From a virus, in IMG/VR virus record IMGVR_UViG_3300043811_000032, positions 34,692 through 98,691 of that record: 64,000 nt of DNA. One strand, 5' to 3'. Below the pieces are notes generated by a model, which was not told where the DNA came from, made no database searches, and was given only the letters and a program-made list of their open reading frames with translations. Within the stretch, counting starts at the first letter, position 1. Each line of letters begins with the position of its first letter. Position numbers and translations under genes: made by a program. Below, piece by piece: positions 1 through 13,803 of this stretch.

Positions 1-9
1 GTGCTTTGG

Positions 10-825
10 TCACTTCACCCTCCTCGCCCACTGCTGCGGCTTGTCGGCATCGGGGCTGATCGGTAACACAGCTTGCCTCGGTTCTCGCCACAGGTGCTTG
101 TACCGCTTCTCGTCTTCCTCGTAGGCACCTTGCAACGGCCCTCTCTCGGCCTTGGGTTCGTAGCCGAGGGCCTGCACGATGTGCTGCCAGACCATGAACT
201 TGGTCCCGTTAGCCTGGAGCCGTAGCCCGAGGTCGATCTGTGCCTGCGCCGCCGTCTCGTACCCTTCGTCGAAACCACCCACGCTCAGCACCAAGTCCCG
301 CTTGAGGATGCCAAGGAGGAGCAGATTCGCGTTGGGAGTCACACCGGAGACCCGAGCACCCTTGTGGTAGCCGATGGTCCAGAAGTCATCCGACGCCACC
401 ATGTCTGGGTTCAGACCGACGTCACCCCGAGCAAACGCGATGACGTCCATCCGCGTGACCGGATCGACACCCTGCCATCGCTGGTCACGCAGGTCCGGTC
501 TGCCCTCCATGTACTTGCACAGGATCGCGTCGTCGTCCCAGTCGCGGTCGAGGCTACCGGGGAGCCACACCCCGTCGTCCGCCGCCCAGGTGACGTACTC
601 GCCTCGACAGTGGAGCAGTGCCCGCTGCTGGCAGTGGCACGGGCTGCCATCGTCGGCGATGAATCGCCATCGGCCTCCCACCCACTCTGCCCCGCTCTCG
701 ACGTCTCGTGGACCTATCGCCGCCATCTCCCACGGGTAGCGGCCGTTGACTGCCTTCTCAGTGCTGGTCCACAGTTCGCGCAGGTTGTGGGGGCGGATGG
801 TCGGTACGATGATGCTGAGCTTCAC
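10..825 (-). CDS. Glycosyltransferase family 2 (GT-A)
   Basis: KLSIIVPT start, GEYVTWAADD (xDD), VGGFDEGY...IDLGLRL. Confidence 0.85.
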   Translation of the reverse strand: MKLSIIVPTIRPHNLRELWTSTEKAVNGRYPWEMAAIGPRDVESGAEWVGGRWRFIADDGSPCHCQQRALLHCRGEYVTWAADDGVWLPGSLDRDWDDDAILCKYMEGRPDLRDQRWQGVDPVTRMDVIAFARGDVGLNPDMVASDDFWTIGYHKGARVSGVTPNANLLLLGILKRDLVLSVGGFDEGYETAAQAQIDLGLRLQANGTKFMVWQHIVQALGYEPKAERGPLQGAYEEDEKRYKHLWREPRQAVLPISPDADKPQQWARRVK

Positions 826-1130
826 GATGGATCGAATCTCCGGTATGGCGCCATCAACTGCTCGTATGCCGCTCGGTCGCTAGCACGTAAAAAAGCGTAG
901 ATAGAACTTTCCGAGGCACCTACCAACTCCTTCGGGATCCCGAACGCCTTTAGAATCATGTTCCGCATTCGCCGCACAAAAGCATCAGGCGTATCGTCTA
1001 CAAGCAACGGCACCCGGTACAGTTCCGCCAACTCCGTCTCGCCGTCCTCCATCAAGGCGTCGACCAGAGCGAACCGACAATCGGCACCGGCGTCGAGGGC
1101 GTCACGGAGAGCGGTGCAAGTCGCGTTCAT
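822..1130 (-). CDS. Hypothetical protein, TIGR02996-like N-terminus
   Basis: RFALVDALMEDGETELAELYR resembles the RLvyADWLeE.Gd..RAE motif; coupled to both neighbours. Confidence 0.5.
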   Translation of the reverse strand: MNATCTALRDALDAGADCRFALVDALMEDGETELAELYRVPLLVDDTPDAFVRRMRNMILKAFGIPKELVGASESSIYAFLRASDRAAYEQLMAPYRRFDPS

Positions 1131-2005
1131 TCGCCCATCACCGTTGCCCAGAACTTCTGAGGCGGGTACTTGTCCCTGACCTTCTGCAGCATCCGCTTGG
1201 CGTACAGCGTACAGATGTCGTGGTAGCCACGGGACTGCACCACGTCAAGGATGTCCCGTGGCCGCTCCTCGTCGAACTCGAAGTAGTCCACGTTCGGCTC
1301 AAACCAGTGGGCCAGCGGGCTGCCCTTCGCCTCGAACAGGGCACTGCCGCCGAGCGCCGCCTCGATGCACCGGCCCTTCACGTGTCTAGCCATCGCCCGT
1401 CGCGGGTCGCCGATCCAGGCCGAGTTGAGCGTGGCCCAGCACCGCTTGACGAACCGAACGTACTCGGCGTCCGGTCCCGGTGGATTGCCTTTGTCACGCA
1501 CGGTCACGAAGTCGGCTAGCTGCCGGAAGAGCCTCGCACGCGGATGGTCGTCGCTGATGCCGCCGCCGAAGCCCAGCTCGATATTCTTAGCTTCCGATGG
1601 ACCTACCCACCTGTCCGGGTCATTAGGGCTCGGGAACACGAAGTCCACGTCCACTCCAGGTGTACCATCCACCGCCGTCGTCAGGTCGAACACCTGCTGC
1701 TCACGGTACGCTTTCAGGTGCGACCACCAATCGGGGCAGGCCGCGTCCCAGCAGATGAACACCGAGCGACACTGGGTGCGTACCCACTTGAGCGAGTTGA
1801 GCAGTGGCTGTCCCACTCCCAACGAACCGCTGAACACCGCCACGTCCGGCTTGTGCTTGGTTACCGCTTGGTGGATGCGTAGATCAGAGCAACCGGGCAG
1901 GAAGCCGTAGTGCTCGACGATGGCTCCTAGATGCCGCTCCGCCCAGCGCAGACACACGTCCCTTATCTGTGAGTCTTCTTGGATCAGCAGGAGCAGTTTC
2001 TTCAT
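1127..2005 (-). CDS. Glycosyltransferase, GT-B, CgeB/YkvP-like
   Basis: C-terminal KGRCIEAALGGSALF...WFEPNVDYFEF typical of Glyco_trans_1_2. Confidence 0.7.
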   Translation of the reverse strand: MKKLLLLIQEDSQIRDVCLRWAERHLGAIVEHYGFLPGCSDLRIHQAVTKHKPDVAVFSGSLGVGQPLLNSLKWVRTQCRSVFICWDAACPDWWSHLKAYREQQVFDLTTAVDGTPGVDVDFVFPSPNDPDRWVGPSEAKNIELGFGGGISDDHPRARLFRQLADFVTVRDKGNPPGPDAEYVRFVKRCWATLNSAWIGDPRRAMARHVKGRCIEAALGGSALFEAKGSPLAHWFEPNVDYFEFDEERPRDILDVVQSRGYHDICTLYAKRMLQKVRDKYPPQKFWATVMGE

Positions 2006-2871
2006 CGCGGTGTATGCTCAGGGCAACGCCAACCATTCGCAAACTGGGGATACTCACAGTGCCCAACCATCCAAGGTTCGGGTCTGCCTCCCTCTTGCCA
2101 CGGCTTCATTTCTCGCGGGCATACTCGACAATTACGACCGCCCACACCAACGAAGTTTCCTTTCACCTGGCAGCTCCAAGGCAACGCTTCTTGCCCTACC
2201 TTGAGACCGACCCCAAACCACGACTTGTCTTGATCATACTGCTCAACGAACTCCAACCACTCCTGATCCTTTGCAGTGATTTCGTTCCAGTGCCGGCCTA
2301 CGTCTGGATCAAGACACGAGCAAATATCATGGAACGCCACGTGCTTGCAATGTGGAGATACCAGCCGATGGTCTCGTCGCACGCTCGCGAGGTCGTGGCT
2401 GGCATCGATGAAGCACAGGTCCCATTTGGTATCCCGCAACTCGGCTCGCACTTCGTCGCTATCCGTATCGGCTTCGATGTAACTAAACCGTCGCATCGAG
2501 CCATACTCCTTCACGTTAGGATATGGCGGTCGGCGGTCGACCCCGCAGGCTCGCTTCACCTCCCAGAACTTGCCGAGGAACTCCACCGTCGCCACGAAGC
2601 TGCCGCCCGGCCCAACGCCCAGCTCCATGTAACTCTCGATGGGTCCGAGGTCCAGCAAGGCGAGCAAGTAGCGGGCAAACTGGTTCGGGTACTGGCACAG
2701 GTGCAGTCCACAGTCGGTCGGCATCCAGCGCGGGTAGACCCGGTCACTGTAGCCCTTGACCCACGTCCGCACGCCGCAGTGGCATAGCAACCCGTGCAGG
2801 TAGTCGTAGCAACGTAGTTCCCGCTGACTGCTGGCACGGAACAGCGACACGCACTCGGAGAAGCTGATCAC
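2002..2871 (-). CDS. Class I SAM-dependent methyltransferase (Methyltransf_24-like, probable sugar O-methyltransferase)
   Basis: YMELGVGPGGS motif I; DLCFIDASH...VRRD...VAFHDI. Confidence 0.8.
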   Translation of the reverse strand: MISFSECVSLFRASSQRELRCYDYLHGLLCHCGVRTWVKGYSDRVYPRWMPTDCGLHLCQYPNQFARYLLALLDLGPIESYMELGVGPGGSFVATVEFLGKFWEVKRACGVDRRPPYPNVKEYGSMRRFSYIEADTDSDEVRAELRDTKWDLCFIDASHDLASVRRDHRLVSPHCKHVAFHDICSCLDPDVGRHWNEITAKDQEWLEFVEQYDQDKSWFGVGLKVGQEALPWSCQVKGNFVGVGGRNCRVCPREMKPWQEGGRPEPWMVGHCEYPQFANGWRCPEHTPR

Positions 2872-3803
2872 AGCAGCTGCACCGCCTTCGCCACTTCTTT
2901 GATCCCGTCCTCCAACGACCGCTTGGCCTCGAAGCCGGTGGCACGGAGCCGAGCACTGCTCACCTCGTAGTCACGCTTATCGGGGTCATTACTGTGTATC
3001 GCTTCGTGAATGACGAACGGCTCGCCAACTATGTGGTACACTTTCCTAGCCATCTCCAGCTTCGTGCAATTCGCTGAGTCATTGCCGAGGTTCCACGGCT
3101 TGCCGACCATCTTCATGGTCACATCACACCAATTCATCTCACTGCTCCGAACCGCCCACGCAAAGCAGTCCGCCACGTCCTGCACGTGGACGTAGTTGCG
3201 GCGGGCGTGGCCCTCGAACAGCACTATGGCTCGGTCCTGGACGGCCCGACGGGTGAAGTCGTTCACCAGCAGGTCCCAGCGCATCGCCGGGCTGACGCCG
3301 AACACCGTGGCGAGCCGGAAGCTGACCGTGTTGGGTGAGTCGAGCACCATCTCCTCGGCCATCTTCTTGCTCTTGCCGTAGACGCTCACCGGTTCCAGTG
3401 GCGTGTCCTCGTCACAGACCTTACCCGGCGCCGTCCTACCGTAACCCGAGTTGGTCATCGGGAACAAGAGCAACTGACCCGTGCGGCGACGTGCCAGCAG
3501 CATGCGGATCGCCTGGCTGTTGACCTTCCAAGCGTTGTCAGGGTCACGGTCGCAGGCGGTCAGGCCAACCACACCGGCCAGCGGGATCACCGCATCAGCC
3601 TTGTCGAGCAACGGCTGCAAGACATCCTCATCGAAGCACTGGCCGCGAACGAACTCGAAGTTGGGATGCCCGCATACCGGCAGCAGACCGGCACCGCCCC
3701 GACTCAGGTTGTCGAGCACCGTCACCTCGTGCCCATCGGCCAGCAGCCGCGGCACCATGACGCTCCCGAGGAATCCGCAACCCCCGGTAATGAGGATCTT
3801 CAC
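2868..3803 (-). CDS. Extended SDR NDP-sugar enzyme, Cj1427-like GDP-heptose 4-dehydrogenase
   Basis: ITGGCGFLG, TNSGYG, YGKSK, FRLATVFGVSP.MR.DLLVNDF, DPDKRDY match my recollection of C. jejuni Cj1427. Confidence 0.8.
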   Translation of the reverse strand: MKILITGGCGFLGSVMVPRLLADGHEVTVLDNLSRGGAGLLPVCGHPNFEFVRGQCFDEDVLQPLLDKADAVIPLAGVVGLTACDRDPDNAWKVNSQAIRMLLARRRTGQLLLFPMTNSGYGRTAPGKVCDEDTPLEPVSVYGKSKKMAEEMVLDSPNTVSFRLATVFGVSPAMRWDLLVNDFTRRAVQDRAIVLFEGHARRNYVHVQDVADCFAWAVRSSEMNWCDVTMKMVGKPWNLGNDSANCTKLEMARKVYHIVGEPFVIHEAIHSNDPDKRDYEVSSARLRATGFEAKRSLEDGIKEVAKAVQLL

Positions 3804-3970
3804 TTGCAAGCCCTCGCAAGAAGGACTTGCAAAGCCGTCATGATGATTACTTGATTTGACATCACAAAGCTAAAGCATTCACCCGAGTTAGTATACTTAT
3901 CAGAGTTCGCGAACTTCTCCGTTAGTTTAATGGCCTCAGCTAGGATTCTGATCGCTTCTTCAATCTCCAT
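3800..3970 (-). CDS. Small hypothetical protein (56 aa, MEIEEAIRIL...)
   Basis: Translated by hand, below track cutoff; GGAG RBS; GTGA overlap with the next gene. Confidence 0.55.
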   Translation of the reverse strand: MEIEEAIRILAEAIKLTEKFANSDKYTNSGECFSFVMSNQVIIMTALQVLLARACK

Positions 3971-3983
3971 GTTTCATGCTCTC

Positions 3984-4907
3984 CTACAGTTGCTGCTCCA
4001 CCGTTGCACCTTCGTCGTCGAACTCTACCGCCTCGGGCCTGCAGTCCAGTCTCTCCATCGCCAGCATCACGTCCAGCCGCCGCTCCTCGGGAACGCACAG
4101 CAGCAGGTAGCCGCCGAGTCCCGCCCCGCACAGCTTGCCGCCCCAAGCACCAGTATCCATCGCGGCGGCGTACAGTATGTCCGCTCGCTCCGTCGTGCAG
4201 TTGCTAGAGCGCTTCTTCGCGTTCCAAGCATAGTGCAGATGCCTGCCGAACTTCTCAAGGTCGTCGTTGAGCAGTGCCGAAGTCATCACGAACGCTTGCC
4301 CCTTGAGGATCATCATCGTCTCGAACTGACTGCCAACGTTCTCCGCCAACCGCTTCTGTATCCCAGCATGCGTGCGGGCGGCACCGGTGTGGACCAGCAC
4401 CAGGCTACGTTGTAACGCCTCCCTGGTCTGGTCCGGCAGCACCACCGGCGAGACTTGGATCACCTCCTTAGTAAGAGAAGAGTCAGCTGCATTTGCATGC
4501 GGTGCCTCCTTCTTGCTAGGGAACTCGATCAGGTTCAGGCCGCCGAACGCCGCTGCATACTGGTCCTGCTTGCCGCCCGCTATCCGCAAGTGCTTCCGTT
4601 CCATCACATACGCGGCCTCAGCAAGATCGTGCTTGCTCCGCTCGATGCCGAGGCGGGCATCCATCGCCCTTATGATCGCCACGCACACACTGGAGCTGCC
4701 GCCAAGACCGCTGCCGGGAGGGGCGTCACACTTGACGTTGACGCTCAGCTCGCCGTTGTACGTCAGCTCGCAATGAGCATAGCGTTTGATGGTTGCGCTC
4801 AGCACCGCGCCGCCGTGGACGTCGCTGAACTCTGGCAGGTCCGTACCACCGCCGGCGAAGCTGACCCGCAACGGGGCTCGGGTACGGACGGTCGAGTGGT
4901 GAATCAC
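3984..4907 (-). CDS. hddA: GHMP kinase, D-glycero-alpha-D-manno-heptose-7-phosphate kinase-like
   Basis: RAPLRVSFAGGGTD, PPGSGLGGSS, GGKQDQYAAAFGG, GGKLCGAGLGG. Confidence 0.85.
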   Translation of the reverse strand: MIHHSTVRTRAPLRVSFAGGGTDLPEFSDVHGGAVLSATIKRYAHCELTYNGELSVNVKCDAPPGSGLGGSSSVCVAIIRAMDARLGIERSKHDLAEAAYVMERKHLRIAGGKQDQYAAAFGGLNLIEFPSKKEAPHANAADSSLTKEVIQVSPVVLPDQTREALQRSLVLVHTGAARTHAGIQKRLAENVGSQFETMMILKGQAFVMTSALLNDDLEKFGRHLHYAWNAKKRSSNCTTERADILYAAAMDTGAWGGKLCGAGLGGYLLLCVPEERRLDVMLAMERLDCRPEAVEFDDEGATVEQQL

Positions 4908-5128
4908 TTCTTCCGCACCCTCGTAACCTTGTACTTTTTACCGATATCTACGCCTGCTTCCAAGTCGTCCGCAAACTGTCGCAACCGACTGGCTATCTTC
5001 TCTACCACGGATGGCTTTGCCTTCTCTAAGCAGTCGCAGGGCATCATGTCAGCGAACCTGTTGCAGCATCCAATCGTGGCGTGGCTCCTCGCTTCCATCA
5101 CTTCTGCCCGCGTTCGTTGCTTCGCCAT
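4904..5128 (-). CDS. Small hypothetical protein
   Basis: Fills the gap, coupled overlap with hddA. Confidence 0.6.
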   Translation of the reverse strand: MAKQRTRAEVMEARSHATIGCCNRFADMMPCDCLEKAKPSVVEKIASRLRQFADDLEAGVDIGKKYKVTRVRKK

Positions 5129-5129
5129 G

Positions 5130-6095
5130 CTATATCCTCACGTTGGGGTACTCGGATGCGAACCAATCGTACGCACGATTGAGCGCCTCGCCCAGCGGCT
5201 CGAACCGGAAGTCGGGCAGCAGGGACCGCAGCAGGCTCGTGTCGGTCGGGCGGCGGCGCTGGCCGTTGGGCTTGTCGGTCTCGTACGTTGGAAACGGCTC
5301 GCGTCGTCCAACCGCCTTGTGGAGCTGGTCCACCAACTCACGGATCGTCACCGATTCACCGCTGCTCACGATCAGCCGCGGTGGTAGCTCGGGTAGGTCG
5401 ACCAGCCGCATCACGATCCTCGCCACGTCATCACTGCTCAAGAACTCTCGCTCGCTGCTGCCGTCGCCCCACACCCGCAGGGGCTCGCCGTTCTTGCGTG
5501 CCTGGTAGAGCTTATGGATCAAGGCGGGTACCACGTGGCAGGTGCCGAGGCGGTAGTTGTCGTGCGTACCGAAGATGTTGGCCGGGATGAGCGTGCATCC
5601 CTGGAGCCCGTGCTGCTTAGCCGCTCCGTCGATCAGCACGTCAATCATCCGCTTGGCGTGACCGTAGTGCCAGTTCTGGACCGGAGGCATTCCTCGGTGC
5701 AGATCGCCTTCCTCCAAGCCTCGTATGTTTGCACGTTCTGCGTCCAGAGCGACATAAGCAGGCATCGCACACACGCTGCTGAACGCGATCAACCGTGCCT
5801 TGTGACGGACGCAGGCATCGACCACGTTGCAGGCCATCAACAGGTTCTTGTGGCACAGGTCGTAGGGCGCCTCCGTCTGCTGGCCGATGCCGCCCACGAA
5901 GGCCGCGGCGTGGATGACAACGTCGGGCTTGACTGCATCAAAGGCTTCATCAATATGTGACGGATAGCACAGGTCACCGAACTTGCCAGCATAAGCACCC
6001 TTGACACGAACCGAGAACACCATCTCGTGCTTCGTCTCGACCCGCCGCAGGGCCTGTCCTACAAGTCCGTCGCTGCCCGTACAAAGTATCCTCAT
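5130..6095 (-). CDS. fcl: GDP-L-fucose synthase/ColC-like NDP-4-keto-sugar epimerase/reductase
   Basis: TGSDGLVG, HAAAFVGGI, YGHAKR, HVVPALIHK, VWGDGSSEREFL, KPNGQRRR. Confidence 0.85.
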   Translation of the reverse strand: MRILCTGSDGLVGQALRRVETKHEMVFSVRVKGAYAGKFGDLCYPSHIDEAFDAVKPDVVIHAAAFVGGIGQQTEAPYDLCHKNLLMACNVVDACVRHKARLIAFSSVCAMPAYVALDAERANIRGLEEGDLHRGMPPVQNWHYGHAKRMIDVLIDGAAKQHGLQGCTLIPANIFGTHDNYRLGTCHVVPALIHKLYQARKNGEPLRVWGDGSSEREFLSSDDVARIVMRLVDLPELPPRLIVSSGESVTIRELVDQLHKAVGRREPFPTYETDKPNGQRRRPTDTSLLRSLLPDFRFEPLGEALNRAYDWFASEYPNVRI

Positions 6096-6268
6096 GGCTG
6101 CTCTTCCGTAGAGATGGCGAACACTGTTCCAGACAACTTGGCCGTCTTGAAGTTCTCGATGAGCACTTGCTTCACTGCCTCTGTCTGCTTCAAGTCGCTG
6201 ATCTTAAACGGCCCCACCGACTGCAGACCGTGTTCCTGTGTCAGGATGCAGTACGTCACTAGTACCAT
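6092..6268 (-). CDS. Small hypothetical protein (58 aa, MVLVTYCILT...)
   Basis: Translated by hand; GGAGG RBS; ATGA overlap with the fcl start. Confidence 0.55.
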   Translation of the reverse strand: MVLVTYCILTQEHGLQSVGPFKISDLKQTEAVKQVLIENFKTAKLSGTVFAISTEEQP

Positions 6269-7892
6269 CACCGTTGCCCTCCAGCAGGTTGCGTTGCAGT
6301 CGCTTGCCGTTCATCGCCTCGACCTGTGCCTTCGCGTCGGTGCCGAACTCCCGCTCGACGAGTGCCAGGTACTCGGGACGGGAGAAGTAGAAATTGTGAG
6401 CGTAGTCCCGGAATCGCAGCACTTGTCCGCTGGTTAGATGCTTCGTGGCCATCGGAGTGCAGTCGCGGCTGTGCTGGCTGAACGCGCTCCACTCCAGACC
6501 ATGGTGGCTGGGTGTCTGCTTCCACAGGGCACTGCCTGGATATGGCATAGCGCTGTAGAAGTTGGCCCACGGCGTGTTCAACATCGTCGCCAACTTCAAC
6601 GTCTGATCCATCGACGTGTGGTCGTCCTCGGGTAGACCAAAGATGTAGTTGGCGAGCACGTGAATGCCAGCCGCTTGGATGCGGTCAACGCACTGACGGA
6701 TCTGATCATCGCCACCCTTGTAGTCTTTGTCCACGCCTGCTCGCACGTTGGTCGCTGCCGACTCGATGCCCAGCGCCAGCCAGCGGAAGCCGGCACGACG
6801 CATCCGTTCCAGCAGCCCACGGTCGTTGGCCGTATCCACCCGTGCGTACGCCCATACATTCAAAACTTCAGCTGGATCCTTGATCCGCTGCATGATGGCG
6901 TCGCACACGCCCTCGACGTGGCGCTTGTTCAGGACGAACATCTCGTCGGCGATCTTGATGTTGCCGACACCGTGATCGTAGTGGAGCTTGGCGATCTGCT
7001 GGCCAACGTGCTCGGGGCTCCAGGTGCGGTAGCTGTTGGGCACCTCAGCACCCGGCTTGAACTTGCCGGCCAGCTTCAGTGCGACCTTCTCGCCCTCCTT
7101 GAACGGCGATTGTATACAGCAGAAGCTGCAGGCGAACGGACAACCAAGACTGGTGTAGATGGCGGCGTAGGGCGAGCGGGTTCTTGTTGCCTTGTTGCCT
7201 TTGTACGTTATCCCACCAGCATCTTGAGCAAAGTACTCCAATCTATGAGCGACATCCCAAGTAGGTGAGGTCCAGCCGTGCCAATTGTGACAGCGATACT
7301 TACCGTAGCTCTCGATGCCGTGCATCGCCGGCATGTCCGCGTTCACGTCCGTCACGTTCGGGGCGCTGGTCGTCTCGAAGTAGGTCCGTGCGGCGAACGG
7401 GCTGGGACCGTAGAAGCCGATGCCACGGACGTCGTGATGGTTACGCCCTTGGAGCAACTCCGCGATGCTGGTGCAGCCCTCGCCCGTGCACACGTAGTCA
7501 GCACCTGACTCCCGCAGCGTGCGGTCGGGCAACGCGGCGACGTGTCCGCCTACCATCACCACCTTGGTCGCCTCGTCCCACGCCTTGGCTGAGTAGCTGA
7601 TCCGGTACGCCTCGGGCATCGTCTGCGTGCTGGCCGATGGGTTCTGGCCGTAGCACACAACGGCTGTGAGTCGGGGCTTGCGGTCCGCCGCCACCTTGCC
7701 GGCGTCACCAGCGTCCAGCCCCTCGGCGTTGGCATCGAGGATCTCCACGCTGAAGCCCTTGCGACGGACGTACTCGGCGATCAGACCGGCCCACACAGGC
7801 GGCTCTATCGCGGTCAGGTCTTCGGCGAGGTCTTGATAAACTTCTCGCCTGCCTCCCGGTGAGACTAACAACAAGTCGATTTGCTTGGTCAT
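6204..7892 (-). CDS. B12-binding radical SAM protein (class B methyltransferase-like)
   Basis: Cobalamin domain (EPPVWAGLIA...ILDANAE...VGGHVAALP); GCPFACSFC CxxxCxxC; LGIES, IFGLP, PYPGS. Confidence 0.9.
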   Translation of the reverse strand: MTKQIDLLLVSPGGRREVYQDLAEDLTAIEPPVWAGLIAEYVRRKGFSVEILDANAEGLDAGDAGKVAADRKPRLTAVVCYGQNPSASTQTMPEAYRISYSAKAWDEATKVVMVGGHVAALPDRTLRESGADYVCTGEGCTSIAELLQGRNHHDVRGIGFYGPSPFAARTYFETTSAPNVTDVNADMPAMHGIESYGKYRCHNWHGWTSPTWDVAHRLEYFAQDAGGITYKGNKATRTRSPYAAIYTSLGCPFACSFCCIQSPFKEGEKVALKLAGKFKPGAEVPNSYRTWSPEHVGQQIAKLHYDHGVGNIKIADEMFVLNKRHVEGVCDAIMQRIKDPAEVLNVWAYARVDTANDRGLLERMRRAGFRWLALGIESAATNVRAGVDKDYKGGDDQIRQCVDRIQAAGIHVLANYIFGLPEDDHTSMDQTLKLATMLNTPWANFYSAMPYPGSALWKQTPSHHGLEWSAFSQHSRDCTPMATKHLTSGQVLRFRDYAHNFYFSRPEYLALVEREFGTDAKAQVEAMNGKRLQRNLLEGNGDGTSDVLHPDTGTRSAVGGAV

Positions 7893-8137
7893 TCTGATGC
7901 TGGCCCGCCGCAAGAGTAGCGATGCACTTCTACGTCAACACCCAAAGCCTTCAACTCATCGGCTTGTTCCGTCGCCTGTTTCTCGTCGGTATAGGCATAA
8001 TCTTCCATCTTGATCGGGTTCTTCACCGTTGGCTGCATTGGTAGAAAAGCCAGTGCCTCACGACTCCACACCAAACTACCATAGCCGATGACGTAGATAT
8101 CTGGAGGTAGTTCCTCGCCAATCTTCTCCTCGCTCAC
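7889..8137 (-). CDS. Hypothetical protein
   Basis: Overlaps at both ends. Confidence 0.6.
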   Translation of the reverse strand: MSEEKIGEELPPDIYVIGYGSLVWSREALAFLPMQPTVKNPIKMEDYAYTDEKQATEQADELKALGVDVEVHRYSCGGPASE

Positions 8138-8625
8138 GTTACTACCCTCATAGACTTCTCGCCGGCCACCAGTTGCTCCGCCAGTCTGCGGGTCTCCTCC
8201 TTCACCTCTTCGGCGGTCCAGTAGTATTGCTGTCGACCGAACAGCCCACCTAGCCTCAATGAGTAAGACGGAGACATGTCATCGCAGTGGGCGCAGTCAA
8301 AACCGAACCACCAGACGTCGTCCGGCTCCCCTGGATTCGGCACATGACAAACGCAACCGGCACACTGGTGAGCGTAGGTGATACCACCGTGTGCTTCTAG
8401 GTGCTCAGTCTCCGGCTCGCTATATCCTTTGCCGTGTAGCGGATGCTCTGGCGGTATCCCAACGTAACCGCACCACGAACCTCCACCACCGCGATGGATG
8501 ATGCACGGGAAACCGGCGTGCTCGAACTGTTGTCGGTCCGGTCCCTCGTCCTGCCAAGGCCCGGGACCCCAGCTCGTCTTATCCGCATACTGTTCGCAAG
8601 AAGGACAAGAATGCTGCTCGCTCAT
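8134..8625 (-). CDS. Conserved phage hypothetical protein (CGYV...HGG.TY...WWFGFDCAH)
   Basis: Recognisable phage motif set; ATGA coupling. Confidence 0.7.
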   Translation of the reverse strand: MSEQHSCPSCEQYADKTSWGPGPWQDEGPDRQQFEHAGFPCIIHRGGGGSWCGYVGIPPEHPLHGKGYSEPETEHLEAHGGITYAHQCAGCVCHVPNPGEPDDVWWFGFDCAHCDDMSPSYSLRLGGLFGRQQYYWTAEEVKEETRRLAEQLVAGEKSMRVVT

Positions 8626-9851
8626 GATGCTACCCTCGCTGGTGCTAGTTCGTTCAACTCCTCGCACAGTCGCAATATCGCCTCTCGTTCCAGCCCCGGA
8701 TGATTGCCGACGTACCATCCGTAGTGGTGGATGTGCTCGGCGACCGGGAACCGCTCGTGGTAGTGCTCGCCGTAGATCCGCTTCAGGTACGGCTGCCTAA
8801 GTTGATTGCCACCACCGGCAACACCTCGCCTAAACTCAACACCGTGACGTCGCAGTAGTCCCTCCACCGCATCCCGCAGGGTTGTATCAGGGCGCTGGAG
8901 GACGAGGGTGAAGGCGTAACTAGAGCACCCTTCGATGGCAAAGTCCGTTTGGTAGACTTCCGGGTCGAGGTGCTGCAGGAACGTCTTGAGATTCTCGTTG
9001 CGTTTCGCATTGTTCTCGTCCAGTCGCTTGAGCTGCTCGATGCCCAGCACCGCGCCGATCTCAGTGTTGCGGCAGTTGAAGCCAGGCAGGGCGAACACAA
9101 ACTCGGGGTTGAGGTCGGGATGCTTGTGGTGCACGTGCCGCTTGTAGCCATCGCCGCCGCACTCGCGGGTCATGCCGTGGCCCCGCAGCATCCGCACCGT
9201 GCGGGCAAACTCGTCGTCGTCAGTCGCTACGATCCCACCCTCTATCGTCGTCATGTGATGGGCGTAGTACGTCGAGAAGTTCGATGCGAGTCCGAACGAG
9301 CCAACCTTCTTGCCCCAATATAGGGTCTCGGTGTTGATTGCACCGACAGCCTCACAGCAATCCTCAATGACCACCGGCCCCCAATCTTCCGGCGACTTGT
9401 TACAGACCACGTCCAGCGCCGCGTTGTTGAAGGCATTGTATCCCATGCAATGCGTTGGGAAAATTGCGAGCGGTCGCTCATCCTTGAGCGACTTCGCTAC
9501 CGACGATCCATCCATCCCCAGCGTCCGTCTGTCCACGTCCACGAACACCGGCTCCAGCCCGGCGTGCAACACGCTCGTGATGTCGCTACTCCACGTCAGC
9601 GTTGGCACCACCACCTTGCCCGGTCCGCGTAGCTCCTTGAGGGCGTGCATAGTCAGGAGGTTAGCGCTGCTGCCCGAGTTGACGAACACCGAGTGCTTGA
9701 CTCCCAGCCACTCGCTGAACTTGGCCTCGAACTCGCGGACCTTCGTGCCCTGCGTCAATCGCGGATCGTCCTGCGAGAGCAGCGCCTTCACCGCGTCGAG
9801 GTCCGAGCGGTGGAAGTTCTGTTGCATCAGGGGCCAGTTGAACTTGGTCAC
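8622..9851 (-). CDS. DegT/DnrJ-family PLP enzyme, ColD/E1-type NDP-4-keto-sugar 3-dehydratase
   Basis: VNSGSSANLL, IEDCCEA, STYYAHHMTTIEGG with His in place of the Schiff-base Lys. Confidence 0.85.
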   Translation of the reverse strand: MTKFNWPLMQQNFHRSDLDAVKALLSQDDPRLTQGTKVREFEAKFSEWLGVKHSVFVNSGSSANLLTMHALKELRGPGKVVVPTLTWSSDITSVLHAGLEPVFVDVDRRTLGMDGSSVAKSLKDERPLAIFPTHCMGYNAFNNAALDVVCNKSPEDWGPVVIEDCCEAVGAINTETLYWGKKVGSFGLASNFSTYYAHHMTTIEGGIVATDDDEFARTVRMLRGHGMTRECGGDGYKRHVHHKHPDLNPEFVFALPGFNCRNTEIGAVLGIEQLKRLDENNAKRNENLKTFLQHLDPEVYQTDFAIEGCSSYAFTLVLQRPDTTLRDAVEGLLRRHGVEFRRGVAGGGNQLRQPYLKRIYGEHYHERFPVAEHIHHYGWYVGNHPGLEREAILRLCEELNELAPARVAS

Positions 9852-10114
9852 TTGCTCAGCTTTCTCTTGAGTCGAGTGTCTGGTCCACCAGTTGGATAGC
9901 AACGATACCCACCGCCACACGCCTCCCGTCCCTGTTCCGGCTTGTCGATGCGGTTGTCACGTCGCACAGTAGCATTCTTCGGCAACCGAAAGTGCTTCTT
10001 CCTCACAGTGGTATCTCCGTTCAGCCAGTCGGGATCGTTGCGTGCATAGTAAGCATCCAACGACGACCACCGCTTCCAGGTCCCATCCTGCCAAACCGTG
10101 ATGCACTCATCCAT
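9848..10114 (-). CDS. Hypothetical protein
   Basis: Coupled ORF. Confidence 0.5.
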   Translation of the reverse strand: MDECITVWQDGTWKRWSSLDAYYARNDPDWLNGDTTVRKKHFRLPKNATVRRDNRIDKPEQGREACGGGYRCYPTGGPDTRLKRKLSK

Positions 10115-10445
10115 AAGTGATCGGACTCCTGATCTCACCCTTGCGCTTGGCGTCGCGGTGCCAGTCTTCGAGGATCACGTTCTCGCCGCTGCTGATGTCG
10201 GCCGTCGCCAGCCAGGCGCTGAACGCCTTGAGCTTGGCCTTGTTCGCAGGGTCACTGCTCTGCAGCACCTTGGCCACCGCCTCCTGCAACAGCCGCTTAT
10301 TCTCCTGCTCCTCGTCCGTTAGCTGCCGCTTCTGCTCCACTCGGAACCATCGGTGCAGAGCGATCAGGTTGCGGAAGGTCTGACTCATCAGCTCTCCGAA
10401 GAGCTTCTGGACGTGTGCCTTCTCGGCCCGTTGCTCCTGGTTCAC
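10107..10445 (-). CDS. Hypothetical protein
   Basis: Coupled ORF. Confidence 0.6.
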   Translation of the reverse strand: MNQEQRAEKAHVQKLFGELMSQTFRNLIALHRWFRVEQKRQLTDEEQENKRLLQEAVAKVLQSSDPANKAKLKAFSAWLATADISSGENVILEDWHRDAKRKGEIRSPITYG

Positions 10446-11074
10446 AACAGATCCCCCTGCTGCACCAGCACGGTCGAGCCATCGGACTCCACTGCGTCCA
10501 CAAACTCCTCGTAGACGGCGCCGTCACGACCCGGGCCACCGCACAAGTCGACGACCGGAATGTTGGTAAGCATCTGGTCCAAGGCATGACAGTAGTTGCC
10601 GCTGTGCTGCGGTCCCGGATCGAGCGGCTCGGTAGCACCGGTCTGCGTGACGATGATGACCTTGATCGGCTTGCCCGTCATCTGCTCGTACTTGTCGAGA
10701 TGGTTGACGAGCTGGTCGGTCGCACAGAGCAGGAAGTTGATCCGCGGCACCACGCAGATCGGCAGCATCCCCGCCATCGCCATGCCCATCGCCATGCCGA
10801 GCTGCGTGTTCTCGAACACCGGCAGCTCTAACTTGCGGTCGTCGGGCAGGCCCAGCTCCGCGATCTGCTTGCTGATGGCATGAGCAGGATAGCGAACGCC
10901 TTGGCCAAGAAAGATTGCGTTGGACTGCTCGGCCAGCAGCTTCATCCCGCGCATGATCTCGGTGCGGTAGTTCATCTTTGGTAGCTGAACTAGAGTCTCC
11001 CCGTGGGACATAGCCTCTTGCAGCCGCTTGATGCGACCGGCATCTTTCGACCGAGGGTCAGTACAGTCGTGCAT
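10442..11074 (-). CDS. TPP-dependent E1 beta-like subunit (pyrimidine-binding domain only)
   Basis: FLGQGV, ELPVFENTQLGMAMGMA, ATDQLVN, GPQHS; no C-terminal transketolase domain; start may be 10975. Confidence 0.8.
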   Translation of the reverse strand: MHDCTDPRSKDAGRIKRLQEAMSHGETLVQLPKMNYRTEIMRGMKLLAEQSNAIFLGQGVRYPAHAISKQIAELGLPDDRKLELPVFENTQLGMAMGMAMAGMLPICVVPRINFLLCATDQLVNHLDKYEQMTGKPIKVIIVTQTGATEPLDPGPQHSGNYCHALDQMLTNIPVVDLCGGPGRDGAVYEEFVDAVESDGSTVLVQQGDLL

Positions 11075-11083
11075 CGTTGCTCC

Positions 11084-11350
11084 TCACTGTTGCTCTTCTC
11101 GCTGTATGAGTTGGTCCAGCGGGCTCAGCTCCTCGCTCGCCAGCCAGTGCATCGTCATCCGTCGGAAGTTCCGCTGTCGCAACGTCGGTCGTCGCTCTGG
11201 CTCGTGCGGCCCCTCGTAAGTATCCCGCCTCAGTACCACCGGCTTGCCCATCACAAAGTTGGGCGGTCCTAGCAGATCATCGATTTCCCTGAGCGTCAGG
11301 CCCTGCATCCGCAACTGGAACCGGCTGCGGTCGCGTGCGTAGGCTGGCAT
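11084..11350 (-). CDS. Hypothetical protein
   Basis: ORF between the E1 alpha and beta genes. Confidence 0.55.
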   Translation of the reverse strand: MPAYARDRSRFQLRMQGLTLREIDDLLGPPNFVMGKPVVLRRDTYEGPHEPERRPTLRQRNFRRMTMHWLASEELSPLDQLIQREEQQ

Positions 11351-11368
11351 TCCGTTGCCCTCGTTAGT

Positions 11369-12052
11369 TTACATCCCGCCTGTAGGTTGAAGTTGCTTGG
11401 CGCCAAAGTCGATAAAGCGACCAGCACCCATGTGCGGCCAGCCGAGTTCGTAGCGGTAGCGCACGCTAGTCAGTCTTCTGCTGCCGTACATCGCCTCGAT
11501 GCCGGGGTCAGAAGACCTGGTCTTACCCCATACCTCCGCCGTCGGCGTGTTCACGCACTTGCCGTTATCCTCGACCACGTAGGTGATCGGCAGATCGTGG
11601 TTGGCGGCATAACGGGTGCACTCGGCGAACGCTCCCATCTCCGCGGCCATGTCGCCGACGAAACACCAAACGTGTCCTAGCTTGTAGACTCCGTCATTAT
11701 CTCGGCTCAGCAACTTCTCGTGTTTGATCGACCACGCCACACCTAGTGCGATGGGCAGGTTGCCGCCGCAGATGGCACTGCTGTAGAACCGCCGCTCGGG
11801 CACGCAGATCGTGATGGACTCGCCCTTGAGGATCTTCGCCATCAGCTCGTCGCGGGGGATGCCGTGGAGTAACGCATGGTAGTGACTTCTCCACGTTGAA
11901 AATACGTAGTCATGCGGCTTGACTCGCTTGAAGACCTCGATGAGCTGATCTTCGTTGCCAGCGCTCAGGTGCACTGGTGCGCGGATCTTACCGGCGTTGT
12001 AGGCCGTGGCGACCTCTTGCTCGAAGTCGATCAGTTCCTGCTTGGTGACCAC
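11369..12052 (-). CDS. TPP-dependent E1 alpha-like subunit (short)
   Basis: HLSAGNE, STWRSHYHAL, VGDMAAEMG...VEDN TPP-binding motif. Confidence 0.85.
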   Translation of the reverse strand: MVTKQELIDFEQEVATAYNAGKIRAPVHLSAGNEDQLIEVFKRVKPHDYVFSTWRSHYHALLHGIPRDELMAKILKGESITICVPERRFYSSAICGGNLPIALGVAWSIKHEKLLSRDNDGVYKLGHVWCFVGDMAAEMGAFAECTRYAANHDLPITYVVEDNGKCVNTPTAEVWGKTRSSDPGIEAMYGSRRLTSVRYRYELGWPHMGAGRFIDFGAKQLQPTGGM

Positions 12053-12057
12053 TGGTG

Positions 12058-13696: not shown

Positions 13697-13803
13697 CGAT
13701 CCAACCCATAGAACCAACGACCAAGCGGGGACCACGATGGATCAAACAAAATACCCCATACAACCAACCCCATCGCTGCCCAGAAGAACCAAGGAGCATC
13801 CAT
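13693..13803 (-). CDS. 36-aa Trp-rich membrane peptide between the terminase halves
   Basis: MDAPWFFWAAMGLVVWGILF...; starts 1 nt after the ATPase stop; ATGA overlap with the nuclease gene. Confidence 0.5.
   Translation of the reverse strand: MDAPWFFWAAMGLVVWGILFDPSWSPLGRWFYGLDR

What the first reader, a model, noticed from the sequence alone, without database searches (positions are those of the whole stretch)
10..12052. Phage-encoded GDP-heptose-type sugar tailoring pathway directly downstream of terminase
Seen: an HddA-like kinase, a Cj1427-like SDR, a His-type (ColD/E1) PLP dehydratase, an Fcl-like reductase, TPP E1 alpha/beta, a B12 radical SAM enzyme, a SAM methyltransferase, a GT2 and a GT-B, all co-oriented with terL. 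Known: HddA, Cj1427 and Fcl homologs build modified GDP-heptoses for the Campylobacter capsule, and ColD-type enzymes remove the C3-OH of 4-keto sugars. Inference: the product is a 3-deoxy, possibly C-branched and methylated heptose or hexose. Its position in the late operon, likely between terminase and portal if the genome closes beyond the window ends, favours virion decoration over DNA modification. No GmhA, nucleotidyltransferase or Gmd is visible, so these must come from the host or lie outside the window.
Basis: partly seen in the sequence, partly recalled or inferred. Interest (0 to 1): 0.85.

Follow-up and report, generated by a model that had tools for sequence, protein, structure and literature searches.

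The report
Phage glycan island for branched deoxy-heptose
A complete, apparently lytic phage genome (probably of a planctomycete) spends about a fifth of its DNA, between its packaging and portal genes, on enzymes that most likely turn a host seven-carbon sugar into a 3-deoxy, carbon-branched, methylated sugar and attach it to an acceptor that is still unknown, most plausibly the virus particle.

Summary
All ten named enzymes are present, intact and co-oriented with terL.

The cluster is larger than reported. It runs 6.8 kb past the window start, for 18.8 kb and about 23 genes in total. The extra part holds four more GT-B glycosyltransferases, a methyltransferase and a second B12-radical-SAM gene.

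The contig is a complete 98.6-kb virus. The island lies between terL and the portal. No GmhA, nucleotidyltransferase or 4,6-dehydratase occurs anywhere in the genome.

A sister phage (TerL 65%, portal 54%, capsid 52% identity) carries the same island at 50-64% identity. It has a different replication module and no hmU-DNA modification genes. So the island is ancestral, not a chimera, and travels with the structural genes.

The core set is a Cj1427-like C4-dehydrogenase, a ColD-type 3-dehydratase, a minimal ThDP E1 alpha/beta pair, a B12-rSAM, an Fcl-like SDR and an HddA-like kinase. It recurs in many bacterial and archaeal surface-glycan loci and in cyanophages S-SM2 and P-TIM68.

The pathway reading is well supported. 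The virion as acceptor is plausible but unproven; host envelope remodelling is the main rival.

The scan met related cassettes before on other DNA (e1-1194746, e1-1187270).

Verdict: a new variant of a known kind.

The parts
13805..14620 (-). terL, ATPase half (271-aa ORF; homology starts near residue 40)
   Evidence: PHROG 7579 at 2.8e-30 and PHROG 2 at 1.2e-27. 38% identity to Thermus phage Riverbug TerL. 65% identity to the sister phage G006.
12614..13735 (-). Probable terL nuclease half in a separate ORF, with an inserted Zn-ribbon/SH3-like segment
   Evidence: A GVDLG..DPAA motif and a C-terminal HHGD motif are shared with the ORF that follows terL in G006 (E 5e-8). The motif aligns to the start of the Riverbug TerL nuclease domain only at E 0.21. 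The AF2 model failed. Assignment is tentative.
12058..12522 (-). Unknown 154-aa ORF between terL and the island
   Evidence: No Pfam or PHROG hit. No homolog in G006.
11369..12052 (-). Minimal ThDP enzyme, E1 alpha-like PP-domain subunit (227 aa)
   Evidence: E1_dh 2.9e-13; TIGR03182 1.9e-24. An invariant GDM-x26-EDN ThDP motif occurs in six viral homologs. 80 cellular homologs were found.
10442..11074 (-). Minimal ThDP enzyme, E1 beta-like Pyr-domain subunit (210 aa)
   Evidence: Transket_pyr 1.3e-5; PRK09212 1.4e-10. It is adjacent to E1a in 74 of 80 cellular loci. It is fused to E1a in cyanophage S-SM2.
8622..9920 (-). ColD-type PMP/PLP-dependent sugar 3-dehydratase (His in place of the Schiff-base Lys)
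   Evidence: DegT 1.5e-62. ColD 2gms 1.3e-47, with His aligned to ColD His188.
6204..7913 (-). Cobalamin-dependent radical SAM enzyme 1 (probable C-methyltransferase)
   Evidence: B12-binding 2.4e-14 and Radical_SAM 4e-11. CxxxCxxC at residue 258. 53% identity to G006. It co-occurs with E1a in 20 of 80 cellular loci.
5130..6095 (-). Fcl/GDP-fucose-synthase-like SDR (3,5-epimerase/4-reductase type)
   Evidence: NF047922 7e-44, below its cutoff. Human GFS 4e5y 2.6e-47. The motifs SSVC, YGHAK and CHVVPA are present.
3984..4907 (-). HddA/WcbL-like GHMP sugar kinase
   Evidence: GHMP_kinases_N and _C. NF049969 1.8e-50 (172 bits, cutoff 600). WcbL 4usk 1e-47. GHMP motifs I-III are present.
2868..3809 (-). 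Cj1427-like GDP-heptose C4-dehydrogenase
   Evidence: PDB 6vo6 2.3e-82, aligned over residues 2-312 of 313. It is one of only two extended SDRs in the genome.
2002..2871 (-). SAM-dependent methyltransferase (Methyltransf_24-like)
   Evidence: PF13578 2.5e-5, just under its cutoff. Absent from G006.
1127..2005 (-). GT-B glycosyltransferase, distant paralog of three further GTs beyond the window start
   Evidence: BLASTP 24-28% identity to GT_316, GT_359 and GT_313, which hit Pfam Glyco_trans_1_2. AF2 pLDDT 86.7. Foldseek finds BshA, MshA, Gtf3 and PimA at 1e-7 to 1e-8.
10..825 (-). GT-A (GT2-like) glycosyltransferase
   Evidence: N-terminal IIVPT and DDG motifs. Atlas look-alikes score 0.97-0.99 and include clusters that carry PF00535. 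There is only a weak NCBIfam EpsD hit. Pfam is negative at 0.01.
1..10 (-). First codons of the next gene (a GT-B of about 332 aa). The island continues to contig position 27917, which is L002 10917.
   Evidence: Features beyond the window start, in L002 coordinates:
- 16703-17701, 15512-16462 and 13969-14910: Glyco_trans_1_2 paralogs at 39-48% identity to each other.
- 12946-13881: Glycos_transf_1 type.
- 14898-15515: methyltransferase.
- 12131-12718 plus 10917-12182: second B12-rSAM, split in two ORFs.

Best explanation
This is an 18.8-kb island of about 23 genes for nucleotide-sugar tailoring and glycosylation. It sits in a complete, apparently virulent 98.6-kb tailed-phage genome whose host is probably a member of the Planctomycetota. 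The island was fixed between terL and the portal gene in the common ancestor of at least two phages.

Inferred pathway:
1. The host supplies sedoheptulose-7-P isomerase, a phosphatase and a guanylyltransferase. [quoted passage not shown]
2. The Cj1427-like enzyme oxidises C4 without removing the 6-OH, since the phage has no 4,6-dehydratase.
3. The His-type ColD-like enzyme removes the 3-OH, giving a GDP-3-deoxy-4-keto-heptose.
4. The minimal E1 alpha/beta ThDP enzyme adds a two-carbon unit from pyruvate to the C4 carbonyl.
5. The Fcl-like SDR reduces and/or epimerises the product.
6. One or two B12-radical-SAM enzymes and two SAM methyltransferases methylate it.
7. Six soluble glycosyltransferases (one GT-A, five GT-B) build or attach the glycan in the cytoplasm.

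The acceptor I think most likely is the virion (capsid, tail or decoration proteins). If so, the particle would carry a coat of an unusual sugar.

Shown: the gene identities, catalytic motifs, genome position, conservation and recurrence of the cassette. Inferred: the substrate, the order of steps, the product and the acceptor. My confidence in the pathway part is about 0.65. My confidence in the virion as acceptor is about 0.45.
For: Enzyme identities and motifs:
- Only two extended SDRs occur in the genome and there is no 4,6-dehydratase.
- NTP_transferase, NTP_transf_3, SIS and transketolase are absent from the 100%-complete genome.

Published chemistry:
- E1 alpha/beta-like pairs (Plm8/Plm9, and the avilamycin system) add a pyruvate-derived two-carbon branch at C4 of NDP-4-keto-deoxysugars (PMC4802897).
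- 4-keto-3-deoxy sugars are the acceptors of ThDP carboligases, followed by reduction (PMC9306805).

Heptose context elsewhere:
- The sister phage adds a split transketolase, which would supply sedoheptulose-7-P.
- In a Planctomycetales MAG the cassette has an NTP_transferase directly after the kinase and a GT9 heptosyltransferase.
- In cyanophage S-SM2 a fused E1ab lies near a phosphoheptose isomerase, a carbohydrate kinase and nucleotidyltransferases.

The island is real and selected:
- Sister phage G006 is a complete genome with TerL 65%, portal 54% and MCP 52% identity.
- It has orthologs of ColD, the kinase, the Cj1427-like enzyme, the rSAM, E1a, E1b, Fcl, the methyltransferase and four GT-Bs at 50-64% identity between terL and portal. 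The gene order is shuffled.

Virion as acceptor:
- The island lies in the packaging/morphogenesis arm, with terL, then the island, then the portal.
- No intergenic terminator-like site was found.
- G006 shares the structural genes and the island but none of the replication or hmU-modification genes.
- Three GT-A-like paralogs are interleaved with head and tail genes and conserved in G006.
- Neither phage has an integrase or a resolvase.
- No island protein has a TM segment, and there is no Wzx, Wzy or priming transferase.
- Phage-encoded GTs glycosylate mycobacteriophage capsid and tail-tube subunits (Freeman 2023, as cited in PMC12619734).
Against: - No enzyme reaches an NCBIfam equivalog cutoff. 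HddA scores 172 against 600, Fcl 150 against 500 and RfbH 179 against 423. Substrate assignments are therefore extrapolations.
- The E1 alpha/beta pair is much shorter than characterised E1 enzymes and has never been assayed. Its donor and acceptor are unknown.
- The role of the Fcl-like enzyme after C4 branching is unclear. It may serve a second, unbranched sugar.
- Cellular copies of the cassette sit in envelope-glycan loci. Soluble GT-B enzymes also act on lipid-linked LPS cores.
- Foldseek neighbours include small-molecule, lipid, protein and DNA glycosyltransferases.
- Virion proteins show no Ser/Thr-rich tails.
- There are no expression or proteomic data.
- The host assignment rests on one DUF1559 gene.
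Confidence: 0.5

Rival explanations
1. Same pathway, different acceptor. The phage remodels the host cell envelope (LPS or outer-membrane glycan) during infection, for example to block superinfection or adsorption of progeny to lysing cells. This is what has been supposed for the 'LPS gene clusters' of large cyanophages.
For: - The cassette occurs in cellular surface-glycan loci in 80 loci, including SAR11, Prochlorococcus, Patescibacteria, Planctomycetales and Phycisphaerales.
- In the Planctomycetales MAG it lies beside LptD, a GT9 heptosyltransferase and GT2s.
- Lytic cyanomyoviruses S-SM2 and P-TIM68 carry homologs in clusters annotated as LPS or capsular genes (PMC3037559).
- LPS core glycosyltransferases are also soluble or peripheral GT-B enzymes.
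Against: - No GT9, Wzx, Wzy, ligase or lipid-carrier priming enzyme is present, and there are no membrane segments.
- There is no integrase, so no lysogenic seroconversion.
- The island is placed inside the packaging/structural arm and is inherited with it, not with early genes.
- Five of the six island GTs belong to families with no match in the 80 cellular cassettes. Only GT2_271 has one weak match, 25% identity in L049.
Confidence: 0.25
2. The island supplies an unusual sugar for glycosylation of the phage DNA, as a hypermodified 5-hydroxymethyl-uracil carrying a glycan. It would work together with the TS-like, HMUDK, TAGT and rSAM-SPASM module further upstream.
For: - The genome encodes a thymidylate-synthase homolog, two 5-hmdU DNA kinases, a TET-associated glycosyltransferase and an rSAM-SPASM enzyme at window 22027-28014 on the same strand.
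- Virus-encoded GTs can put diverse glycans on DNA (Pyle 2024, cited in PMC12619734).
- T4 alpha-glucosyltransferase is among the structural neighbours of the GT-B.
Against: - Sister phage G006 keeps the whole sugar island but has neither HMUDK nor TAGT, nor any other gene of that module.
- The island is separated from the DNA module by the primase, a DNA methyltransferase and terL.
- Six GTs would be an unprecedented chain on DNA.
Confidence: 0.1
3. Artefact or dead cargo: a chimeric assembly with a host polysaccharide locus, or non-functional stuffer DNA.
For: - The genome is a metagenomic assembly.
- One gene, the second B12-rSAM, is interrupted inside its CxxxCxxC motif.
- Sullivan et al. 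raised the stuffer idea for cyanophage LPS clusters.
Against: - G+C content and strand skew are uniform across the junctions.
- The contig closes with a 127-bp overlap and CheckV rates it 100% complete.
- An independently assembled sister phage from another sample has the island in the same place, at 50-64% protein identity with intact ORFs. This is a sign of purifying selection.
- Catalytic motifs are intact.
Confidence: 0.03

Closest known systems
Campylobacter jejuni capsular GDP-heptose modification pathways (HddA; Cj1427 C4-dehydrogenase; HS:5 PLP-dependent C3-dehydratase; C4-reductases)
   Same: - It has an HddA/WcbL-like kinase.
- It has a full-length Cj1427 homolog (6vo6, 2.3e-82).
- It has a ColD-type His dehydratase and an Fcl-family SDR.
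- The Cj1427 plus C3-dehydratase combination is the one shown in vitro to give GDP-D-glycero-3-deoxy-4-keto-heptose (PMC10680097).
   Different: - There is no GmhA, GmhB, HddC, 4,6-dehydratase or cupin epimerase.
- It adds a ThDP E1 alpha/beta pair, B12-rSAMs and methyltransferases.
- The reductase is closer to true GDP-fucose synthases (165 bits) than to the C. jejuni heptose reductases (48 bits).
- It is encoded by a phage.
Acyl-branched sugar pathways: YerE/YerF (yersiniose A) and the E1 alpha/beta-like pairs AviB1/AviB2 (avilamycin eurekanate) and Plm8/Plm9 (paulomycose)
   Same: The logic matches: a 3-dehydratase makes a 4-keto-3-deoxy NDP-sugar, a ThDP enzyme adds a pyruvate-derived C2 unit at C4, and an NAD(P)H reductase follows. 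The two-subunit E1-type architecture is like Plm8/9 and AviB1/B2.
   Different: - The subunits are minimal (about 215 aa and 175-210 aa, PP and Pyr domains only).
- The probable carrier is GDP and the sugar a heptose, rather than a CDP- or dTDP-hexose.
- There is no YerE-type flavoenzyme.
- The pair is untested biochemically.
'LPS'/heptose gene clusters of T4-like cyanophages (S-SM2, P-TIM68, P-SSM2, S-SSM7)
   Same: These are phage-borne nucleotide-sugar islands of unknown role. S-SM2 and P-TIM68 carry an E1ab homolog (38-39% identity) next to heptose-pathway genes.
   Different: - The cyanophage clusters encode their own isomerase and nucleotidyltransferases.
- They lie near tRNAs and hli genes, not between terL and portal.
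- They have a fused E1ab.
- No Cj1427-like (best phage hits were 31% or lower) or GT-B paralog family was detected in cultured phages.
Mycobacteriophage virion glycosylation (Che8, Corndog, Myrna; Freeman et al. 2023)
   Same: Phage-encoded glycosyltransferases act in the cytoplasm on capsid and tail-tube subunits. This is the only experimentally shown precedent for the proposed acceptor.
   Different: - Those phages carry a few GTs and methyltransferases and use host sugar nucleotides.
- Here a full tailoring pathway plus six GTs is present.
- There is no sequence relationship, since the GT-B family has no match in 50,697 phage records.
- Glycosylation is not demonstrated here.
Uncharacterised cellular 'GDP-heptose tailoring with branching enzyme' cassette
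   Same: It has the same core set: E1a with E1b in 74 of 80 loci, Fcl-like in 47, Cj1427-like in 37, ColD-like in 33, the kinase in 27 and B12-rSAM in 20, all within 10 kb.
   Different: - The cellular copies include a nucleotidyltransferase and envelope GTs (GT9, GT2) and sit in LPS-type loci.
- The phage copy swaps these for its own GT-B paralog family and sits in the morphogenesis arm.

Membership tests
C. jejuni-type GDP-heptose modification pathway | D-glycero-D-manno-heptose 7-phosphate kinase (HddA) | tested here: inconclusive
   Best NCBIfam model is NF049969 at 1.8e-50, but 172 bits against a cutoff of 600. Best PDB hits are WcbL and HddA. GHMP motifs are intact. There is an internal deletion of about 40 aa relative to HddA.
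C. jejuni-type GDP-heptose modification pathway | GmhA isomerase, GmhB phosphatase and HddC guanylyltransferase in the locus | tested here: not met
   No SIS_2, NTP_transferase or NTP_transf_3 match anywhere in the complete genome. These must be host functions.
C. jejuni-type GDP-heptose modification pathway | Cj1427-type C4-dehydrogenase | tested here: met
   PDB 6vo6 at 2.3e-82 and 280 bits, aligned end to end. Activity not tested.
C. jejuni-type GDP-heptose modification pathway | PLP/PMP C3-dehydratase with catalytic His replacing Lys | tested here: met
   ColD 2gms at 1.3e-47. The query His aligns with ColD His188, the position changed in the H188N and H188K mutant entries.
C. jejuni-type GDP-heptose modification pathway | GDP-heptose 4,6-dehydratase (needed for the 6-deoxy and 3,6-dideoxy series) | tested here: not met
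   The genome has only two extended SDRs, the Cj1427-like and the Fcl-like.
E1 alpha/beta-type two-carbon branching system (AviB1/B2, Plm8/9) | Paired E1 alpha-like and E1 beta-like subunits with a ThDP-binding motif, encoded beside NDP-4-keto-sugar genes | tested here: met
   E1_dh and Transket_pyr hits. An invariant GDM-x26-EDN motif. Adjacent E1b in 74 of 80 loci and ColD within 10 kb in 33 of 80. No direct sequence comparison with AviB or Plm proteins was possible.
E1 alpha/beta-type two-carbon branching system (AviB1/B2, Plm8/9) | Transfer of a pyruvate-derived C2 unit to C4 of the keto-sugar | not testable with these tools
   Needs an enzyme assay.
Phage virion glycosylation system (mycobacteriophage type) | Phage-encoded glycosyltransferases | tested here: met
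   Six GTs in the island. Three further GT-A-like paralogs lie in the head/tail module.
Phage virion glycosylation system (mycobacteriophage type) | Glycan attached to capsid or tail subunits | not testable with these tools
   No virions are available. Virion ORFs show no obvious Ser/Thr-rich tails, which neither supports nor excludes it.
Cyanophage 'LPS'/heptose gene cluster | Phage-borne heptose genes including an E1ab homolog | tested here: met
   38-39% identity to S-SM2 and P-TIM68 'transketolase central region' proteins. S-SM2 neighbours include a phosphoheptose isomerase.
Phage DNA glycosylation (TAGT / hmU hypermodification) | Dependence on a DNA-base hydroxymethylation, kinase and GT module | tested here: not met
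   The module is present in this genome. It is absent from the sister phage that retains the island.

The most novel reading that the evidence does not exclude
The phage coats its own capsid and/or tail with an oligosaccharide built around a sugar not yet described in nature. That sugar would be a D-glycero-3-deoxy-heptose carrying a C4 two-carbon branch and C- and O-methyl groups. It would be made by a pathway whose core is a minimal two-subunit ThDP carboligase working with a Cj1427-type oxidase, a ColD-type dehydratase and a B12-radical-SAM enzyme. This core is also a widespread but unstudied surface-glycan cassette of uncultured bacteria and archaea. If so, this would be the first virion glycosylation system outside actinophages, and the first in which the phage encodes the sugar chemistry itself.
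Probability: 0.3. Interest if true: 0.8.

Novelty: new variant of a known kind. Interest (0 to 1): 0.62.

Why it matters
- Scale: about 19% of a complete phage genome is devoted to making and transferring a sugar. The investment is conserved in a sister phage, so it must pay for itself.
- Virion biology: if the acceptor is the virion, phage particle glycosylation extends from mycobacteriophages to an unrelated lineage. It would also show that phages can encode the tailoring chemistry and not only the transferases.
- Enzymology: the genes define a compact, testable pathway. The first two steps match reactions already demonstrated with C. jejuni enzymes. The next enzyme is a minimal E1 alpha/beta ThDP enzyme of unknown function.
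- Reach: that ThDP enzyme recurs in SAR11, Prochlorococcus, Patescibacteria, Planctomycetes, DPANN archaea and cyanophages. Characterising it would annotate a common piece of the hypervariable surface-glycan islands of environmental microbes.

Tried and rejected
- The 74-aa ORF 4904-5128 was tested as a split-off N-terminus of the kinase. It has no PDB similarity, and the kinase has its own motif I.
- ORFs 10107-10445 and 11084-11350 were considered as missing C-terminal parts of E1 beta and E1 alpha. This was rejected. The short subunit lengths are conserved in all viral and cellular homologs. The G006 homolog of the 112-aa ORF lies elsewhere.
- PHROGs gave nothing for the ORFs between the island and the portal. 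Pfam found only HNH endonucleases there.
- Searches for close relatives by TerL or portal found only one phage. A 305-kb metagenome contig proved to be a concatemer of that same phage.
- In 34 loci with TerL at 36-43% identity, no island gene lies within 10 kb.
- S-SM2 isomerase and nucleotidyltransferase queries were too divergent to profile the cellular loci.
- The AF2 model of the putative TerL nuclease ORF was unusable (pLDDT 32). BLASTP to Riverbug TerL gave only a motif-level match.
- A scan for Ser/Thr-rich acceptor tails in virion ORFs found nothing distinctive.
- The promoter and terminator scan was uninformative: 3 terminator-like sites against 10.5 expected, none intergenic.
- Freeman et al. 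2023 could not be read and is cited second-hand.

Full report
**1. What the sequence is**

The window is bases 34692-98691 of a single 98,691-bp IMG/VR virus record. The record's ends overlap by exactly 127 bp, and CheckV rates it 100% complete. G+C content (0.55-0.64) and a negative GC skew are uniform over the first 38 kb of the window. There are no tRNAs in the window.

All genes discussed lie on the minus strand, so transcription runs from high to low coordinates.

**2. Check of the observation**

- **terL ATPase ORF, 13805-14620.** PHROG 7579 at 2.8e-30; 38% identity to Thermus and Meiothermus phage TerL.
- **E1 alpha-like, 11369-12052, and E1 beta-like, 10442-11074**.
- **DegT-family enzyme, 8622-9920.** Its best solved relative is ColD (2gms, 1.3e-47). 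In the HMMER alignment the query His pairs with ColD His188, the residue replaced in the mutant entries 3b8x (H188N) and 2r0t (H188K). It is therefore a His-type 3-dehydratase and not an aminotransferase.
- **B12-binding/radical-SAM protein, 6204-7913,** with CPFACSFC at residue 258.
- **Fcl-like SDR, 5130-6095.** Human GDP-fucose synthase scores 2.6e-47 and E. coli Fcl 2.6e-27. The motifs SSVC, YGHAK and CHVVPA correspond, from my knowledge of E. coli GFS, to Ser107/Cys109, Tyr136/Lys140 and His179.
- **GHMP kinase, 3984-4907.** Best hits are the heptose-7-phosphate kinases WcbL (4usk, 1e-47) and HddA (4n3o, 4e-40), and all three GHMP motifs are present.
- **SDR, 2868-3809.** It aligns end to end with Cj1427 (6vo6, 2.3e-82, 280 bits).
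- **Methyltransf_24-like protein, 2002-2871**.
- **GT-B, 1127-2005.** The AF2 model has pLDDT 86.7, and the top Foldseek hits are the GT4 enzymes BshA, MshA, Gtf3 and PimA.
- **GT-A-like protein, 10-825.** It has IIVPT and DDG motifs, and its Atlas look-alikes include GT2-bearing clusters. Pfam is negative, so this is the weakest assignment.

No enzyme reaches an NCBIfam equivalog cutoff. Family membership is secure, but exact substrates are not.

**3. The island is larger than reported**

In the 6.8 kb below window position 1 (locus L002) there are further genes:
- Three tandem Glyco_trans_1_2 GT-B paralogs, 39-48% identical to each other and 24-28% identical to the in-window GT-B.
- One Glycos_transf_1-type GT-B.
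- A second SAM methyltransferase.
- A second B12-rSAM, split into two ORFs.

The island therefore spans contig positions 27917-46743. That is 18.8 kb, about 23 genes and 19% of the genome. None of its proteins has a membrane-spanning segment. There is no Wzx, Wzy or priming transferase.

**4. Position in the genome**

The portal is at contig 10012-12036 (Phage_portal 9.5e-42). The HK97-type major capsid protein is at window 59946-61343 (4.1e-36).

Reading along the minus strand, the order is:
1. The replication and DNA-modification genes.
2. terL.
3. The island.
4. About 15 kb of unknown ORFs and HNH endonucleases.
5. The portal.
6. After closing the circle, the capsid and tail genes.

In the nearest cultured TerL relative, Thermus phage Riverbug, terS and the portal follow terL within 0.5 kb. 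The portal, however, lies in the part of the contig that precedes the window.

**5. What is missing**

The complete genome has no NTP_transferase, NTP_transf_3, SIS (GmhA) or transketolase match. It has only two extended SDRs, so it has no 4,6-dehydratase. The activation steps must be done by the host.

The lack of a 4,6-dehydratase, together with a Cj1427-type C4-oxidase, points to a heptose that keeps its 6-OH.

**6. Comparative evidence**

a) *A sister phage.* IMGVR_UViG_3300025536_000013 (G006) is 90,921 bp, also closed by a 127-bp overlap and rated complete.
- It shares TerL (65%), portal (54%), capsid (52%) and most head and tail genes.
- Between its terL and portal it carries orthologs of ColD (54%), the kinase (50%), the Cj1427-like enzyme (61%), B12-rSAM (53%), E1a (64%), E1b (53%), Fcl (53%), the 205-aa methyltransferase (56%) and four GT-B paralogs. 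The gene order is different.
- It also has a split transketolase and a GIY-YIG endonuclease.
- It lacks the GT-A, the MT24, the Glycos_transf_1 GT and the second rSAM.
- It shares none of the replication or DNA-modification genes, and it has no HMUDK or TAGT.

This rules out a chimera and shows purifying selection. It also shows that the island is inherited with the packaging and structural arm.

b) *More distant TerL relatives.* In 34 metagenomic loci with TerL at 36-43% identity, no island gene lies within 10 kb. The insertion is therefore specific to this lineage.

c) *Other viral contigs.* The E1a-E1b-ColD(-SDR) core recurs in otherwise unrelated viral contigs. In one of these it sits beside a 4,6-dehydratase, an RmlC-like epimerase, a PfkB kinase and a GT10.

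d) *Cultured cyanophages.* S-SM2 and P-TIM68 carry an E1ab homolog (38-39% identity). In S-SM2 it is a fused gene next to a carbohydrate kinase, nucleotidyltransferases and a phosphoheptose isomerase. These clusters were noted in 2010 as "LPS genes" of unknown function (PMC3037559).

e) *Cellular genomes.* A scan of species-representative genomes found 80 loci with the short E1a. Within 10 kb of E1a:

| Gene | Loci out of 80 |
|---|---|
| E1b | 74 |
| Fcl-like | 47 |
| Cj1427-like (most at 37-48% identity) | 37 |
| ColD-like | 33 |
| Kinase | 27 |
| B12-rSAM | 20 |

In a Planctomycetales MAG the gene order is: LptD, sugar dehydrogenases, Fcl-like, Cj1427-like, E1a, E1b, B12-rSAM, kinase, NTP_transferase, GT2, GT9 heptosyltransferase, ColD-like, GT2.

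The phage core is thus a viral copy of a widespread, uncharacterised cellular heptose-tailoring cassette. Earlier reports of this scan reached the same view on a Verrucomicrobiae operon (e1-1194746) and an Omnitrophota prophage (e1-1187270).

**7. Mechanism**

Steps supported by homology plus published chemistry:
[quoted passage not shown] With the HS:5 C3-dehydratase the product is GDP-D-glycero-3-deoxy-4-keto-heptose. That compound has so far been made only in vitro (PMC10680097; PMC10440746).
- 4-keto-3-deoxy NDP-sugars are the acceptors of ThDP carboligases in acyl-branched sugar biosynthesis, followed by reduction (PMC9306805).
- E1 alpha/beta-like pairs perform this C2 addition in paulomycin and avilamycin biosynthesis (PMC4802897).

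The phage E1 alpha/beta keeps the GDM-x26-EDN ThDP motif. It also keeps the Pyr-domain glutamate context (the assignment is from my own knowledge). However, it consists of the PP and Pyr domains only. This length is conserved in every homolog, so it is a distinct minimal subfamily.

Inferred steps are reduction and/or epimerisation by the Fcl-like SDR, C-methylation by the B12-rSAM(s), O-methylation by the SAM methyltransferases, and glycan assembly by the six GTs.

Heptose as the substrate is further supported by three observations:
- The transketolase in the sister phage.
- The GT9 and the kinase-NTP_transferase pair in the planctomycete locus.
- The GmhA in S-SM2.

**8. Acceptor**

For the virion:
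- The position of the island and its co-inheritance with the structural genes.
- Three GT-A-like paralogs interleaved with head and tail genes and conserved in the sister phage.
- No integrase or resolvase.
- No membrane or lipid-carrier machinery.
- The precedent of mycobacteriophage capsid and tail-tube glycosylation (cited in PMC12619734).

For the host envelope:
- The cellular context of the cassette.
- The cyanophage precedent.

For DNA:
- This genome has a TS-like gene, two HMUDK genes, a TAGT and an rSAM-SPASM. The sister phage does not.

I put the virion at about 0.45, the envelope at 0.25, DNA at 0.1 and other acceptors at 0.2.

**9. Host**

A DUF1559/SBP_bac_10 gene (2.8e-19) points to Planctomycetota, since that family is, from my own knowledge, greatly expanded there. 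The cassette also occurs in Planctomycetales and Phycisphaerales MAGs. This is suggestive only.

**10. Verdict**

The pathway reading is supported and the virion reading is unproven.

This is not categorically new. Phage sugar islands, phage virion glycosylation and the cellular cassette are each known or previously noted.

It is a distinct variant. It is the largest and most complete combination of tailoring chemistry and transferases seen here in a phage. It is fixed in the morphogenesis arm and conserved between two complete genomes. It also predicts a sugar not yet found in nature.

Noticed in passing
window 12614-14620; L039 10628-12389: TerL appears to be encoded as two ORFs, an ATPase and then a nuclease-like ORF in another frame. 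This holds in both this phage and its sister. In this phage the two ORFs do not overlap; the stretch between the ATPase stop and the nuclease-like homology is about 70 nt of gap plus an N-terminal extension. In G006 the two ORFs overlap by 44 nt. This phage's nuclease ORF carries an extra insertion of about 80 aa, a Cys4-flanked, SH3-like segment. This could be a split terminase or programmed frameshifting.
   Followed up: partly
L002 12120-12190 (contig 29120-29190), minus strand: The second B12-radical-SAM gene is interrupted inside its cluster motif. Frame 1 reads ...RGCPFACT then a stop, and frame 0 resumes ...FCDWG. Removing 11 nt would restore CPFACTFC. This gene is absent from the sister phage. 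It could be a pseudogene, a recoding site or a bypass.
   Followed up: partly
window 22027-28014: A DNA hypermodification module is present: a thymidylate-synthase homolog, an rSAM-SPASM enzyme, a TAGT glycosyltransferase and two tandem 5-hmdU DNA kinases. It is absent from the sister phage.
   Followed up: partly
window 45960-46802, 52195-53031, 57527-58909: Three paralogous proteins (30-34% identity) are interleaved with head and tail genes and conserved as three copies in the sister phage. Atlas features and structure place them with virus-dominated GT-A/GT2-like clusters. Pfam was run only on 57527-58909 and found nothing.
   Followed up: partly
contig 6768-8012 (L001) and window 59946-61343: There are two HK97-capsid-like paralogs per genome. 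The 414-aa protein downstream of the portal matches both capsid-like genes of the sister phage at 44% and 29%.
   Followed up: no
contig 1701-4982 (L001): A 1093-aa protein in the morphogenesis arm has a ribosome-modulation-factor (RMF) domain hit (3e-7, above the cutoff) and a DnaJ-type zinc-finger hint.
   Followed up: no
window 45086-45871 (plus strand): A DUF1559/SBP_bac_10 pilin-like gene (2.8e-19) lies on the opposite strand inside the tail region. It is absent from the sister phage. It is a possible marker of a planctomycete host.
   Followed up: partly
L040 6817-7704 and 7909-8850 (sister phage G006): The sister phage's island contains a split transketolase (N and Pyr/C subunits) and a GIY-YIG/NUMOD3 homing endonuclease. 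This phage has neither.
   Followed up: partly
L127-L129 (JGI24126J20157_1000003): A 305,596-bp metagenome contig holds the sister phage's terL three times at a spacing of exactly 90,794 bp. That equals the genome length minus the 127-bp overlap, so the contig is an assembled concatemer.
   Followed up: no
contig 16966-17637 and 22133-22870 (L001/L002): Two HNH endonuclease genes lie among the unknown ORFs between the island and the portal.
   Followed up: no
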